From Novakomyces olei (Eukaryota), in contig JADEYG010000009.1 in assembly GCA_016906335.1 (NCBI GenBank), positions 248,001-312,000 of the forward strand: a stretch of 64,000 nucleotides of DNA, given 5' to 3'. The notes beneath the pieces were generated by a model. The model was not told where the DNA came from. It saw only the letters and a program-made list of their open reading frames with translations, and searched no databases. This document shows, piece by piece, positions 29,204 through 33,308 of this stretch; within the stretch, counting starts at the first letter, position 1, and each line of letters starts with the position of its first letter. Both the position numbers and the translations under genes were made by a program.

Positions 29204-29491
29204 CTAATTTTCAATAACATAGCCCGGATTTGACCGACGTCGAGCACGCTCTTCAGCGGGCGACAGATTTTCTTCCGTTTCGTGTACGTCAACGAGCTCT
29301 TTGACTTTAAGTATAGCGCCGACAATAGTAGGAGTCGCCCGGTGAGTCCGCACAGACATGCGCTTCCCTAAACCCAATGCGGCCAATACCCTTCGCCTTT
29401 GCCTGCGAACGTTAAGACGTAATTCACAGCGGGAAACTTACCGCGGCATTCCGATACTTGACCGTATCTGCTGGATCCGAAGGTACACCAT
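29204..29491 (-). CDS. MRPL33: Mitochondrial ribosomal protein uL30m, 2 exons
   Basis: MVYLRIQQIRSSIGMPR + 39-nt intron (29441-29403) + QRRRVLAALGLGKRMSVRTHRATPTIVGAILKVKELVDV...NPGY. Confidence 0.9.
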
Positions 29492-29726
29492 GATTGATGT
29501 GTAATTTTTGCTCAATGGCTATTTGAATTCAATATTTAATAAAAATAAAATTGTGTTATAGTGTGTTTCTTCTTCTCGCGATTATTATAATAGGATAATG
29601 CACATTAATTTTATTCACAATAATATAATAAATATAATATTATTTCTTTCTTTTCCCTTTTTTTGTATAGATATATCTATCAATCATCGCAAAGGCCATT
29701 CGACTGTCCAGTATGGTCCAGACGAA

Positions 29727-31849
29727 ATGACTGCCGAGGCGCTCGCGGACGGTGACCTTTCTACGTAATTTTCTACAATTCTATCTCCAATTTCTCATGT
29801 GTTTATTAATTTTTCTCAGGTACAAACAAGATTTGCATCAGGCCCTCCAGCAATCGCGAGAGTCATGCGCGAGCCGTCGCTACTTTTCCGTCTTTTCAAG
29901 TCGCGGCGGTCGCGGTCACGGCAATGATGCAAACGAAGCGGTCACTCCTGCGCGTCATACTCTCTCGCGAATAGGCGAGTTTGATCTGACAGTTGGAATC
30001 CACGGGTTTGTGGGATGCCGATTTTACTCTGTCAAATACGTATTAGAGGAACAGGCGTTCGACCCACAAAGCTCTGCAAAGAAAGACAATTCTACGAAAA
30101 GAGATCAATCAGAAATAGAGGCGAAAACGTCATGGAAAGAAAAAGAAGGTCCGAATTTAGATGTTTGTACAAGTGCAGACGCTCCGATTCAAACTAGCAA
30201 GGCAGAAGGTACAGATGCTAAAGGCGTGGAAAAAATTGAAAAGGAAGCTCAAAATGACGTTGATAATGGCATTTCAAAGGATAATGGAAACGATACTCAC
30301 AAAGAAACTTCAAGGCAAACGCAGACTGAAAAGGATAATGACAAGGATACTGAAAAGGCTGTCTCTATGGGACCTGATGCTATTGAGAAAGTCAGCGTAC
30401 TTGACGGGTCGAAGGAGGACTCGGAATCTGAAAAGGGGAATAAAGATAATACCAATGTAGAAACAAAAAGGGAAGAATCTAATACAGAGCCAAAGGAGCC
30501 TAAGGAGGGACCAAGTACAGAACCTACTCAAGAAACAGCTCAGTCGGCTCTAAAGGCTGCTAATTTAAACTCAAAAACAGACTCAAATAAGGAATTAGAG
30601 CAATTGAAGGAAAAGTCTTTATTGAAACAAAATACTGAAACACGCGTAAAGCAAGAACCAGGATCTTTAACTCCAGGTGCGAAACCAAAAAGAGAACGGC
30701 GCCAGCAGCAGCCGACTACAAATTGGGCAGATATTGTATTTGATTTTGTGGAGAATACTGGTGAGAAATTTTTTCTTCCACGCAACACGAACCTTGTGAT
30801 TGAACCTTCTGCCGAGTTTTATACAGTAAGTTTGAATTTTTGCTTGCATTTGTTTTTTGTCAGGCTCGTTTCCTTTGTTCTTTCGATTTTTCGCTTTGTC
30901 GTTTCGTGTTTGATTTATTCTGTTCGTAATCTCGAAACTAAAGTCAATTAATTGTTTCAGTAAAAAATGTTTATTTAATTGTTTAATCGTTTCGTCAACA
31001 AATTAAAGATTATTTTATGATTGTTTTATTTTCGTATGCTTTACATACTTACTCCAGATTTTCTGCACGTACATCCTGTTTGACAAGACAAACTCAATTT
31101 ACGCCCCCGTTCGTTTACGCATCGATCGGGCAACGCGCAGGCTGGTAGAAAACCTGCAGCGCTACGTTTCCGATGAGCGATCAGCTGAAGCACGTGCAAA
31201 TACGGCTCAGCTAATGTCCACCGAGTCTTCTTCCGTCCGGGAGGATATGCCACAACCCTTTACAGCAGTTTTACCCGACAAGCGCGTTGCCTGGGCAACG
31301 CTGGATAGGCAAGATTTTACTGCTGAGCCGCCAGTGGAGAGCAAACCGCTGCTAAATACGTTGGAAAAACGGAGGCAGAGTTCCCCCGTAACGCGTGCCT
31401 TGAACAACGGATCTGCATCCCACGTTTCGCCTAATGTTCAAAGTATTAGTCATCATAGCGACACGAGCAACAGCCGACGTCGATCCTCACTTGCCGTGAC
31501 GACTCCCCCACCGGCAAGTAACAAATCCCGCACACCACGTGGAGTAAAAATCGAGTCAAAGGCACGGACGGGTACGCGTTCGCCTTCCGTCGAGTCGACG
31601 AATCCAACAAGTAAGCGGAAGCCTTCCATAACTGCCCGCAATACACCGCCCCGGCCGGCTAAAGTGCCAAAGCATATGTTTCAGGTTAAACGCGGTGAGC
31701 GTAGCGTTGGCGCAGAATGGCGCTGTGACGTTTGTGGGGCAAAGGAGACTCCCCTCAAGCGAAGAGGACCGAATGGGCCGGGCACTTTGTGTAATGCATG
31801 CGGGATGAAGGTTATCAAGGGGACAATGCGTCTAGAGCTGATTGATTAG
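29727..31849 (+). CDS. SWC3: Swc3-like (SWR1 complex) protein with a C-terminal GATA-type zinc finger, 3 exons (29727-29764, 29820-30825, 31058-31849)
   Basis: Swc3-like blocks LHQALQQSR..., GEFDLTVGIHGF.GCRFYSVK, DIVFDFVENTGEKFFLPR, YAPVRLRI. Both introns are canonical and keep frame into CDVCGAKETPLKRRGPNGPGTLCNACG (C-X2-C-X18-C-X2-C). Confidence 0.7.
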
Positions 31850-32321
31850 ACTGTATTTTGTGGACAGTGACTTGTGACTAAATGTTTGCCAAAGGGCAAC
31901 TTTATATACATAAAGGACAGATTTCGTATGATACTGTAATAGTGTCATTGTAATAGTGTCAGTATCACAACCTGCCAAGGTAATGTGACCATTCAAGGCT
32001 GTCTACAACGATATTGCAATATAATCTATAAAGCTAAAGACCTACAATGCTACTGCAGCTTTGTAAAAGACAGGATGCGTTTCGCTACTCCGTCTCTCTA
32101 CTCCGTTTCCGACTTTAGAGATACGCGTAGAGTCTTGTAATAATATTGACTATACATATTTCATAGCAACAGTATCTACGATTCGTTGCCTCATTCATAC
32201 TATTGTAAATGATACGGGTTTCAACGCACACCTACCATACCAGATGACCTTAATTTCGCATTAATTACACAAACCAAAACAATCAATATTGGCCATAAAA
32301 ACTCCGGGGTATATTAGGGTA

Positions 32322-33308
32322 TCACTTTCGCTTTCGCCGAGGTCCGGCGCGGGAACCTTGCAATTTCTCATACCGCGATCGAAACGCGTCTCGTTGTGTT
32401 TGATCATGCAGAATTGTATTGAAAATGCCATCGTCCCGATGACCGCCGTGCCCTCTACTGCTTGGTTCAAGAACGGAGGACACAATATGGCCGACTTGAA
32501 AATATTTGGGATTACCACCTTTTTTTGAAATAGCACCAGTAGATCGGTAGTGCCGTTTAGGATCAAGTACATTACGTAACCGCAAAGCATGTAGCTCACG
32601 TTTCAAGCTATCGTCCAATTCAGGCTTTGGCATATCGTACCATAGCGGACCGGCCGTGTCCTGTTTACTGGTCAGCTTTTGCAAATGAAAAGAAGGTCCC
32701 ACAAGAAAAAAATTTAAGACAAATAAAAGTAAAGATAAAAAAAAAGCAAGATACAAGGTGGTATTTCAAAAAGCCGAATCAGTGTAACTATGACATTTCT
32801 TTGTAAAGCTTCATCGAGGAAAGGGATCCAATACGGTCCTAAACTCGCTCTCGCCACAAAATTAGGTTTATCATCATATTCAGGAAGAGCGAAAACCCTG
32901 CTATGTAGAGATCTCTTCCTGACGGCCACATTGAAAACCAGATATGTGTATGAAAGGAACGCAAATATATTTCGAGAGGTAAAAAAAGGTAAATAAATAT
33001 CGAATGGTTAAACATACCTTTTCATCTCGTGCACGACGGTGTTTCCTCTGTTCACGGGGGTTCGTATGGCGCAGAGCTTCAATACGAGCATCTACAGAAG
33101 CATCTTTAGATTGCTGTCCGGTTTTTGCAACTGCCGTAGTAGAATTTGCTTCAGGATAATGTTTTTGTATCGGTTTAAAAGAATTTGGAATCAAAGTCGG
33201 CGGCAATTCCGCGACTGACCCATATGTGCCTATTTCTGATAGTAAACGATCAACAGATTCGATATCCACAAGGCCGTCTGTACGTACAAGGCGCCGTGGG
33301 TCAGTCAT
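32322..33308 (-). CDS. FCF2: rRNA-processing protein Fcf2, 2 exons (33308-33018, 32660-32322)
   Basis: DTAGPLWYDMPKPEL...KRELHALRLRNVLDPKRHYR...PKYFQVG = Fcf2 domain; 357-nt intron GTATGT...CTGAC...CAG. Confidence 0.9.
32775..32881 (-). ncRNA. snR63: Box C/D snoRNA, snR63/SNORD46 ortholog, intronic in FCF2
   Basis: C box ATGATGA (32877-32871), D box CTGA (32782-32779), terminal stem GAA/TTC. Guide GTCATAGTTAC is perfectly complementary to LSU helix 69 GUAACUAUGAC; the D+5 rule points to the second A (yeast Am2256). Confidence 0.88.

What the first reader, a model, noticed from the sequence alone, without database searches (positions are those of the whole stretch)
29727..31849. Swc3-like SWR1 subunit fused to an atypical GATA zinc finger
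Seen: the ORF track shows two separate ORFs (399 aa and 211 aa), but canonical introns 29765-29819 and 30826-31057 join them in frame into one ~610-aa protein. It ends in C-X2-C-X18-C-X2-C with TPLKRRGP (Lys where GATA factors have Trp) and has no basic tail after the finger. Known: budding-yeast Swc3 is a SWR1 (H2A.Z deposition) subunit without a zinc finger, and the basic tail contributes to GATA DNA binding. Inference: the N-terminal blocks are Swc3-like, so this remodeller subunit may carry its own DNA- or nucleosome-contacting module, which could target H2A.Z deposition.
Basis: partly seen in the sequence, partly recalled or inferred. Interest (0 to 1): 0.72.

Follow-up and report, generated by a model that had tools for sequence, protein, structure and literature searches.

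The report
Swc3 remodeller subunit with GATA finger
This fungal gene encodes the Swc3 subunit of the SWR1 histone-exchange machine with an unusual GATA-type zinc finger at its end, a design also present but unstudied in Pneumocystis and absent from baker's yeast.

Summary
A three-exon gene (29727-31849, +) splices to 611 aa. Intron 2 is supported by homology that runs ungapped across the junction, and by an intron at the same spot in an environmental relative. No RNA data could be obtained.

The Swc3 reading also holds. Direct Pfam evidence is weak (PF24707, 11 bits). However, the protein is collinear with six Pneumocystis proteins annotated Swc3 + Swc3_C + GATA. A finger-less profile of this family finds one PDB chain only, yeast Swc3 (9b1e_K, E 1.3e-5).

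The finger is a genuine GATA type (38.3 bits, CX2C-X18-CX2C). Lys replaces the conserved Trp, as Lys or Arg does in 6 of 6 Pneumocystis orthologues. The protein ends 15 residues after the last Cys.

The architecture therefore already exists in public records, as unnamed proteins. I found no paper describing it.

Function is inferred. The finger is probably an extra DNA or nucleosome contact on SWR1's Swc2-Swc3 DNA-sensing module. I rate this a new variant of a known kind, of moderate interest.

The parts
29727..29764 (+). Exon 1 (start codon plus 12 codons and 2 nt)
   Evidence: The ATG is followed by a GTAATT donor. Support is from consensus signals only. An alternative in-frame ATG lies at 29797, inside intron 1.
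29765..29819 (+). Intron 1, 55 nt, GT..AG
   Evidence: It is not verified by RNA or by homology.
29820..30825 (+). Exon 2 (335 full codons, protein P0001)
29833..30042 (+). Swc3 N-terminal domain (a helix followed by a three-strand sheet in the model)
   Evidence: Pfam PF24707 gives 11 bits, E 0.52, on P0001 residues 5-72. hhalign against the Pneumocystis alignment gives E 1.4e-5. The Pneumocystis HMM domain scores 25.7 bits. Nine columns are invariant across 8 sequences. The AF2 model has mean pLDDT 59.6.
30067..30723 (+). Acidic, Lys-rich linker, probably disordered
   Evidence: Composition of protein residues 96-330 (to nt 30771): K+R 39, D+E 50, net charge -11. There is no family hit.
30724..30825 (+). 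Swc3_C domain, first half (up to the exon 2 end)
   Evidence: The HMM domain spans the junction. The corresponding region of the family profile aligns to yeast Swc3 residues 434-514.
30826..31057 (+). Intron 2, 232 nt, GTAAGT..CAG, phase 0
   Evidence: Homology is continuous across the junction. Locus L001 has an intron at the same position.
31058..31177 (+). Swc3_C domain, second half
   Evidence: The family profile aligns here to yeast Swc3 residues 542-585.
31214..31711 (+). Basic linker rich in Ser, Thr and Pro
   Evidence: K+R 29, D+E 13, net +16, with 61 S/T/P in 166 residues.
31724..31810 (+). GATA-type zinc finger, CX2C-X18-CX2C, with Lys (31757-31759) where GATA factors have Trp
   Evidence: Pfam PF00320 gives 38.3 bits against a cut-off of 26.8. 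The best PDB hit is 8j48_D, plant GATA18, E 2e-6. A 20-residue stretch is identical to P. macacae PMAC_000910.
31802..31849 (+). 15-residue C-terminal tail plus stop codon. There is no basic tail.
   Evidence: K+R 3, D+E 2. Stop TAG at 31847-31849.
29204..29437 (-). Upstream divergent neighbour, an exon encoding a Ribosomal_L30 domain. It bounds the gene on the 5' side.
   Evidence: Pfam PF00327, 33.8 bits.
32322..32765 (-). Downstream convergent neighbour, an Fcf2 pre-rRNA processing domain
   Evidence: Pfam PF08698, 79.2 bits.

Best explanation
The gene encodes this fungus's orthologue of Swc3, the fungal accessory subunit of the SWR1 (H2A.Z-depositing) remodeller. It belongs to a variant that carries a C-terminal GATA-type zinc finger.

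Shown here:
- The exon structure, supported by homology.
- Two Swc3 domains (N and C), collinear with Pneumocystis orthologues and with yeast Swc3.
- A bona fide GATA-class finger with an 18-residue loop, Lys in place of the conserved Trp, and no basic tail. It is preceded by a strongly basic 166-residue linker.

Inferred:
- As in yeast, the Swc3 N and C domains dock on the YL1-C domain of Swc2 and form the DNA-sensing module that brings SWR1 to nucleosome-free promoter DNA.
- The basic linker and finger add a further contact with linker DNA or the nucleosome surface, tuning where H2A.Z is deposited.

My odds: about 0.9 that this is a Swc3 orthologue; about 0.5 that the finger contacts DNA; about 0.2 that it reads a specific GATA-like word.
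For: Gene model. The spliced protein is 611 aa with no internal stop. The Pneumocystis family HMM gives 98 bits in three collinear domains of 25.7, 25.2 and 49.2 bits. The middle domain crosses the exon 2/3 junction without a gap. Without the finger the protein still scores 52.2 bits, while 0 of 1000 shuffles reached 10 bits and the highest was 7.7.

Orthologues. All 6 Pneumocystis proteins found are full length and collinear. Pfam Swc3 passes its 26.3-bit cut-off in 3 of 6 (28.3, 31.0, 27.5). Two more fall just below (26.0, 23.9), and one has no hit at E<=0.01. Precomputed Pfam lists PF24707 in 4 of 6 and PF26242 in 2 of 6. PF26242 is named Swc3_C.

Link to yeast. A profile of 4 Pneumocystis proteins cut before the finger, plus window and L001 pieces, finds one chain in the whole PDB at E<=10. 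It is 9b1e_K, 'SWR1-complex protein 3', at E 1.3e-5 and 27.3 bits. The match has three collinear stretches, on Swc3 residues 93-227, 434-514 and 542-585. With the finger left in, the same chain is the only non-zinc-finger hit: all 18 other hits align on the finger columns (17 GATA-type, one TFIIS) (E 0.0026).

Finger.

Function of Swc3. In yeast, swc3 deletion lowers SWR1 chromatin binding from 51% to 15%, and Swc3, Swc2 and the Swr1 ATPase are called the DNA recognition module (passages of PMC12327448). The Swc2 YL1-C:Swc3 submodule carries structured DNA-binding elements (passages of bioRxiv 2024.07.30.605802). S. pombe Swc3 (SPAC4H3.02c) is listed among the SWR1 complex subunits in the paper's table (table passage of PMC2614481).

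Precedent. GATA-type fingers occur in other remodeller subunits: Sfh1 of RSC in Sclerotinia has SNF5 + GATA (abstract of PMC6090059), and NuRD has GATAD2A/B and MTA1 (passages of PMC7736783).
Against: The window protein itself fails Pfam Swc3 (11 bits, E 0.52, against a cut-off of 26.3). It finds nothing alone in the PDB or in 1.8 billion representative proteins. Swc3 membership therefore rests on a transitive chain through Pneumocystis.

Its N-domain lacks about 45 residues that Pneumocystis proteins have before the conserved QSR motif.

No structural confirmation was obtained. The models were poor, and neither Foldseek nor VIA-align gave a clear match.

No RNA, interaction or binding data exist for any member of the variant.

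The finger lacks the conserved Trp, the aromatic residue after CNACG, and the basic tail. Each of these losses could weaken canonical GATA-site binding; this assessment is recalled knowledge, not tested here.

The finger of P. oryctolagi PORY_002852 is degenerate, with no Pfam GATA hit at E<=0.01. That argues against strict necessity, unless it is an annotation error.
Confidence: 0.72

Rival explanations
1. The protein is the Swc3 subunit, but the finger is not a DNA reader. It is a zinc-stabilised module that binds protein or histone, or is purely structural, like the GATA-like fingers of NuRD subunits.
For: The conserved Trp is replaced by Lys or Arg in the window protein and in 6 of 6 Pneumocystis orthologues. 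The window protein also lacks the basic tail and the aromatic residue after CNACG. GATA-type fingers sit in chromatin complexes, such as GATAD2A/B and MTA1 of NuRD, without an established role as sequence readers (passages of PMC7736783).
Against: The motifs TPL, RR and NACG are retained, and the finger scores above Pfam's GATA cut-off. It is preceded by a linker of net charge +16, typical of nucleic-acid contact. Swc3's known role is DNA binding.
Confidence: 0.3
2. It is a free-standing GATA transcription factor that merely descends from Swc3 and no longer works in SWR1.
For: Public records name the orthologues only 'GATA-type domain-containing protein'. The window's N-domain is shortened and scores poorly against Pfam Swc3.
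Against: Both Swc3 domains are kept, in order, in all three lineages seen: the window, Pneumocystis and L001. The search with PMAC_000910 returned one protein per Pneumocystis species and no separate finger-less Swc3. That is weak evidence, because the search is word-indexed and scored only 8000 candidates.
Confidence: 0.08
3. The fusion is a gene-model artefact. Two neighbouring genes, a Swc3-like gene and a small GATA-finger gene, have been joined by a false intron.
For: There are no RNA data. The two ORFs are separated by 232 nt, and the second ORF has an internal ATG.
Against: The Swc3_C domain is split by the intron. It is restored only by splicing, scoring 25.4 against 15.5 bits. The same order, Swc3 N-domain then Swc3_C then GATA, lies within single annotated proteins in 6 Pneumocystis species and on one contig in L001, with an intron at the same place. 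An ATG-initiated second ORF would begin after the Swc3_C half.
Confidence: 0.03

Closest known systems
Saccharomyces cerevisiae Swc3 (YAL011W; PDB 9b1e chain K, 625 aa)
   Same: The N-terminal Swc3 domain and the two-part C-terminal domain occur in the same order, separated by a long charged linker. The family profile aligns to yeast residues 93-227, 434-514 and 542-585. By inference, the role is the same: part of the Swc2-Swc3 DNA-sensing module of SWR1.
   Different: In one search the finger columns of the family profile (about 460-497) were not among the stretches matched to the yeast chain, whose best stretch lay on profile 262-344. The window protein alone shows no detectable similarity to it. 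The window's N-domain is shorter.
Pneumocystis hypothetical proteins PMAC_000910, PORY_002852, PNEG_03103, T552_00264, PCANB_001028 and MERGE_001326 (500-528 aa), named 'GATA-type domain-containing protein'
   Same: The architecture is the same: Swc3 + Swc3_C + C-terminal GATA finger with an 18-residue loop. Lys or Arg stands at the Trp position. A 20-residue finger stretch is identical to PMAC_000910.
   Different: They have a longer N-domain and a helical middle region where the window has the acidic linker. After the finger they have a Lys-rich KWKGGK tail that the window lacks. All are uncharacterised.
Sfh1, the Snf5-type subunit of the RSC remodeller in filamentous fungi (SS1G_01151). Possibly also PDB 23cp chain S, a 607-aa 'putative chromatin structure-remodeling complex protein'.
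   Same: It is a core remodeller subunit carrying a GATA-type finger (abstract of PMC6090059). The chain 23cp_S gives a weak finger match near its C-terminus, E 0.043.
   Different: It belongs to a different complex (RSC) and has a different host domain (SNF5), with no homology outside the finger. Identifying 23cp_S as Sfh1 is my guess.
Class IV GATA fingers with an 18-residue loop, such as Arabidopsis GATA18 (PDB 8j48_D), and classical AreA and GATA-1/3 fingers
   Same: The Cys spacing and the TPL..RR...LCNACG core are shared. The finger scores Pfam PF00320 38.3 bits and matches 8j48_D at E 2e-6.
   Different: Lys replaces the Trp that is present in every PDB finger aligned and in 10 of the 13 metagenome fingers printed. 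There is no aromatic residue after CNACG and no basic tail.

Membership tests
Swc3 (SWR1-complex protein 3; Pfam PF24707 Swc3 + PF26242 Swc3_C) | N-terminal Swc3 domain scoring above Pfam's gathering cut-off (26.3 bits) | tested here: not met
   The window's exon 2 gives 11 bits, E 0.52, at the expected place. Its Pneumocystis orthologues score 28.3, 31.0 and 27.5 (pass), 26.0 and 23.9 (just below), and one has no hit.
Swc3 (SWR1-complex protein 3; Pfam PF24707 Swc3 + PF26242 Swc3_C) | Detectable homology to experimentally defined yeast Swc3 over both domains, in the same order | tested here: met
   The finger-less family profile, which includes window pieces, has a single PDB hit at E<=10. 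It is 9b1e_K, yeast Swc3, at E 1.3e-5 with three collinear stretches. The window matches the Pneumocystis HMM at 52.2 bits without the finger, against a maximum of 7.7 bits in 1000 shuffles. The link is transitive, not direct (one search found no hit).
Swc3 (SWR1-complex protein 3; Pfam PF24707 Swc3 + PF26242 Swc3_C) | Swc3_C domain (PF26242) | tested here: inconclusive
   PF26242 is not in the local Pfam copy. It is precomputed for 2 of 6 Pneumocystis orthologues and named. The window aligns to that region of the Pneumocystis HMM at 25.2-25.4 bits across the splice junction.
Swc3 (SWR1-complex protein 3; Pfam PF24707 Swc3 + PF26242 Swc3_C) | Physical membership of the SWR1 complex through Swc2 YL1-C | not testable with these tools
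   No genome is held for this window, so no Swc2 partner sequence was available. There are no proteomic data.
Swc3 (SWR1-complex protein 3; Pfam PF24707 Swc3 + PF26242 Swc3_C) | Fold like the Swc3 chain in 9B1E | tested here: inconclusive
   The models have mean pLDDT 32.8 and 59.6. Foldseek gave no hit at E<=0.001. The best VIA-align Z was 3.4, and Swc3 was not listed.
GATA zinc finger (Pfam PF00320, class IV) | CX2C-X17/18-CX2C spacing and a score above the gathering cut-off (26.8 bits) | tested here: met
   The loop is 18 residues and the score is 38.3 bits. All 9 PDB hits are GATA fingers.
GATA zinc finger (Pfam PF00320, class IV) | Conserved Trp in the TPLWRR motif | tested here: not met
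   The window has Lys, codon AAG at 31757-31759. The Pneumocystis orthologues have Lys in 3 of 6 and Arg in 3 of 6. The L001 relative keeps Trp.
GATA zinc finger (Pfam PF00320, class IV) | Basic tail C-terminal to the finger. Its contribution to DNA affinity is recalled knowledge. | tested here: not met
   The protein ends 15 residues after the last Cys, with net charge +1.
GATA zinc finger (Pfam PF00320, class IV) | Sequence-specific binding to (A/T)GATA(A/G) | not testable with these tools
   This needs EMSA, SELEX or ChIP.

The most novel reading that the evidence does not exclude
A GATA finger was part of Swc3 early in fungal evolution. It is kept in Pneumocystis, in this fungus, in an environmental AT-rich fungus (L001, which still has the canonical Trp), and perhaps in Basidiomycota. 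It was lost in budding yeasts and filamentous ascomycetes.

Where it is kept, it would give SWR1 a built-in sequence-reading head, so that H2A.Z deposition is partly directed by GATA-like DNA words rather than only by nucleosome-free DNA length and acetylation. In the Pneumocystis and window lineage the head was then re-tooled, with Trp changed to Lys or Arg. In this organism it was also shortened.
Probability: 0.2. Interest if true: 0.72.

Novelty: new variant of a known kind. Interest (0 to 1): 0.5.

Why it matters
How SWR1 finds promoters is an active question. In yeast the answer is DNA-length sensing by Swc2-Swc3 plus acetyl-lysine readers. Swc3 is treated as a yeast- or fungus-specific subunit with no recognisable DNA-binding motif.

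A conserved Swc3 variant with a recognisable zinc-finger DNA-binding domain offers a natural experiment. One can ask whether sequence can direct H2A.Z deposition, and what the ancestral Swc3 looked like.

There is also a practical point for annotation. These proteins are currently labelled only 'GATA-type domain-containing' or 'hypothetical'. They risk being counted as transcription factors rather than remodeller subunits.

Tried and rejected
RNA evidence. The look-up of sequencing runs listed no RNA holder for 29600-32000.

Direct homology searches with exon 2 (P0001):
- The word-indexed search of longer proteins scored 3777 candidates, none at E<=0.001.
- phmmer over 1.84 billion representatives gave 0 hits.
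- The PDB gave 0 hits at E<=10.
- The ESM Atlas on residues 1-90 gave a best score of 0.88 to unnamed clusters, below the 0.9 bar.

The profile of the six Pneumocystis proteins alone (A2) against the PDB gave 18 hits, none of them Swc3. Swc3 appeared only after window and L001 rows were added.

Structure. AF2 on the Pneumocystis alignment gave pLDDT 32.8, which is unusable. AF2 on the window N-domain gave pLDDT 59.6. Foldseek against the PDB had no hit at E<=0.001. VIA-align wide gave a best Z of 3.4 to unrelated chains. This is no evidence either way.

Extra upstream exon. The + strand ORF 29346-29504 superficially resembles the GLP motif of Pneumocystis N-domains. I rejected it for two reasons. 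The alternative models gained at most 0.5 bits in the N-domain and slightly lowered the full-sequence HMM score. The stretch is also the reverse strand of an exon encoding a Ribosomal_L30 domain.

Metagenome scan for the finger. Of 16 loci found, 15 carry only a GATA finger with no Swc3-like region. Most look like plant-type fingers (TPQWRAGPDGPGTLCNACG), which is my reading of the motif. Only L001 has Swc3-like domains. Pfam did not call Swc3 on the L001 pieces.

Earlier scan findings contained nothing relevant. Rfam and tRNA scans of the window found nothing.

Literature:
- 'Swc3' + 'gata*' gave 13 papers, 12 listed. In the two I opened, the match was the detector maker 'Gatan', as it was in PMC13580576.
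- 'Swc3' with GATA-type, GATA-like or GATA zinc finger gave 126 papers holding at least 2 of the 4 terms. Of the 15 listed, 0 contain Swc3.
- The Cell 2024 SWR1 structure paper (PMC11606799) is not held, so I know it only through citing papers.
- Figure S3 of PMC2614481, the Swc3 alignment of budding and fission yeast, is a supplement I could not see.

I could not check whether S. pombe Swc3 has a finger. The organism of the window was not identified. No whole genome is held for it.
Full report
**What is in the sequence**

Region 29727-31849 on the + strand holds two long frames, 406 and 280 codons from stop to stop.

The ATG at 29727 is followed after 38 nt by GTAATT. A 55-nt intron ends in a pyrimidine run and CAG at 29819. 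Exon 2 runs to 30825 and is followed by GTAAGT. A 232-nt, T-rich intron ends in CAG at 31057.

Joining the three exons gives 1836 nt and 611 codons with a single terminal stop. GC content drops to 0.31-0.34 in the introns and upstream spacer, and is 0.41-0.57 in the exons.

The window is fungal. It encodes Pil1, Fcf2, Gpr1/Fun34, Rif1_N, CPSF100, TFIIA and a PP1-type phosphatase, mostly as long uninterrupted frames. No whole genome is held for it, and I did not identify the species.

**Is the splice real?**

No RNA run could be listed, so the test is comparative. An HMM of six Pneumocystis orthologues aligns to residues 266-388 of the spliced protein. There is no gap at the exon 2/3 junction, which lies at residues 348/349.

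Exons 1-2 alone give 15.5 bits for that domain, while the spliced protein gives 25.4 bits.

In metagenome locus L001 the same domain is interrupted by a phase-0 GT..AG intron at the same alignment position. The L001 junction reads APYE|IVASFYL and the window's reads AEFYT|IFCTYIL.

Intron 1 has only consensus support. An in-frame ATG at 29797 inside it would give an unspliced alternative start.

I rejected an apparent extra upstream exon (29346-29504). It adds at most 0.5 bits to the N-domain and nothing to the full HMM score. It also lies opposite an exon encoding a Ribosomal_L30 domain on the minus strand.

**Is it Swc3-like?**

Directly, barely. Pfam Swc3 (PF24707) matches exon 2 residues 5-72 at 11 bits, E 0.52, against a cut-off of 26.3. 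Exon 2 alone finds nothing in 1.84 billion representative proteins, among longer proteins in the word-indexed collection, or in the PDB.

The way in was the finger. Searching with residues 196-263 of exon 3 among longer proteins returned Pneumocystis macacae PMAC_000910 (522 aa), which carries precomputed Pfam Swc3 + GATA.

Searching with that protein returned one orthologue in each of six Pneumocystis species. Local Pfam gives Swc3 scores of 28.3, 23.9, 26.0, 31.0, none and 27.5 bits. Two of the six also carry PF26242, which names Swc3_C.

The window protein is collinear with them in three blocks:
- the N-domain, 25.7 bits
- Swc3_C, 25.2 bits
- the finger, 49.2 bits

The total is 98 bits. Without the finger it is 52.2 bits, against a maximum of 7.7 bits in 1000 shuffles. 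hhalign of exon 2 against the Pneumocystis alignment gives E 1.4e-5. tblastn of PMAC_000910 on the window hits only this locus significantly, at E 3e-14 and 2e-5; the next best hit is E 0.53.

The link to the experimentally defined protein came from profiles. The six Pneumocystis sequences alone did not find yeast Swc3 in the PDB. After I added the window N-domain and L001, chain 9b1e_K ('SWR1-complex protein 3') appeared at E 0.0026. It was the only non-zinc-finger hit among 19.

A finger-less alignment gave that chain as the only PDB hit at E<=10. The score was E 1.3e-5, 27.3 bits, with three collinear stretches covering both Swc3 domains.

Structure prediction did not help. The models had pLDDT 32.8 and 59.6, and no fold search gave a clear match.

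**The finger**

Pfam GATA scores 38.3 bits against a cut-off of 26.8. All nine PDB hits are GATA fingers. The best is plant GATA18 (8j48_D), which shares the 18-residue loop.

Lys (AAG, 31757-31759) stands where the aligned PDB fingers have Trp. The six Pneumocystis orthologues have Lys in three and Arg in three, so this is a conserved feature, not an error.

L001, which has an Swc3-like N-domain, Swc3_C and a finger on one 2-kb contig, keeps Trp. That suggests the basic residue is derived.

The window protein ends 15 residues after the last Cys, with net charge +1. It also lacks the KWKGGK-type tail of Pneumocystis and L001. By contrast, the 166 residues before the finger have net charge +16.

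**How it probably works**

In yeast, Swc3 folds with the YL1-C domain of Swc2 into a submodule with structured DNA-binding elements (passages of bioRxiv 2024.07.30.605802). Deleting SWC3 lowers SWR1 chromatin binding from 51% to 15% (passages of PMC12327448).

I infer that the window protein plays this role, and that its basic linker and finger add a further contact with linker DNA or the nucleosome. Whether the finger reads a sequence is open. The loss of the Trp, the following aromatic residue and the basic tail argue for weakened or altered binding; that view rests on recalled knowledge of GATA fingers.

Other remodeller or chromatin complexes also carry GATA-type fingers. Sfh1 of RSC is one example (abstract of PMC6090059). 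GATAD2A/B and MTA1 of NuRD are others (passages of PMC7736783).

**Novelty**

The architecture is in public databases, but only as 'hypothetical' or 'GATA-type domain-containing' proteins.

Two literature searches that combined Swc3 with GATA terms found no paper describing it. Recent papers call Swc3 fungal-specific or yeast-specific, and the passages I read do not mention a finger.

An Atlas lead suggests similar proteins of about 608 aa in Basidiomycota (score 0.94, 220 shared features). Ascomycete Swc3 clusters show no GATA domain. This is a lead only.

I rate the finding a new variant of a known kind, with the window gene a new member of that variant.

Noticed in passing
window 29713-29730: A five-codon upstream ORF (ATG at 29713) ends in a TGA that overlaps the main start codon (ATGA). 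If it lies within the 5' UTR it could affect initiation.
   Followed up: no
window 29797-29799: An ATG inside the predicted intron 1 is in frame with exon 2. It gives a possible unspliced alternative start.
   Followed up: partly
L001 (metagenome contig, 2041 bp, GC 34%), about 190-2041: A compact gene from an unidentified AT-rich fungus carries an Swc3-like N-domain, Swc3_C and a canonical Trp-containing GATA finger. Its intron sits at the same place as window intron 2. The contig ends before the stop codon.
   Followed up: partly
protein P0005 (Pneumocystis oryctolagi PORY_002852), C-terminus: The finger keeps its four Cys but is otherwise degenerate and has no Pfam GATA hit at E<=0.01. This is either real decay or an annotation or frame problem.
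   Followed up: no
protein P0004 (704 aa, unnamed ENA record): A GC-rich protein fragment has two GATA fingers and a chromodomain. Its C-terminal residues look to me like the beginning of a Snf2-type ATPase; no tool tested this. It would be another remodeller-type protein carrying GATA fingers.
   Followed up: no
L005, L013, L014 (metagenome loci): These GATA-type fingers have Met at the Trp position (TPMMRRGP). They are a second natural departure from the conserved Trp, in unrelated contexts.
   Followed up: no
PDB 23cp chain S / 23fu: A 607-aa 'putative chromatin structure-remodeling complex protein' gives a weak GATA-finger match near its C-terminus (E 0.043). It may be a solved remodeller subunit with such a finger.
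   Followed up: partly
window 29204-29437 (-) and 32322-32765 (-): The gene's neighbours are an exon encoding a Ribosomal_L30 domain, placed divergently about 290 bp upstream, and an Fcf2 pre-rRNA processing gene, placed convergently downstream.
   Followed up: yes
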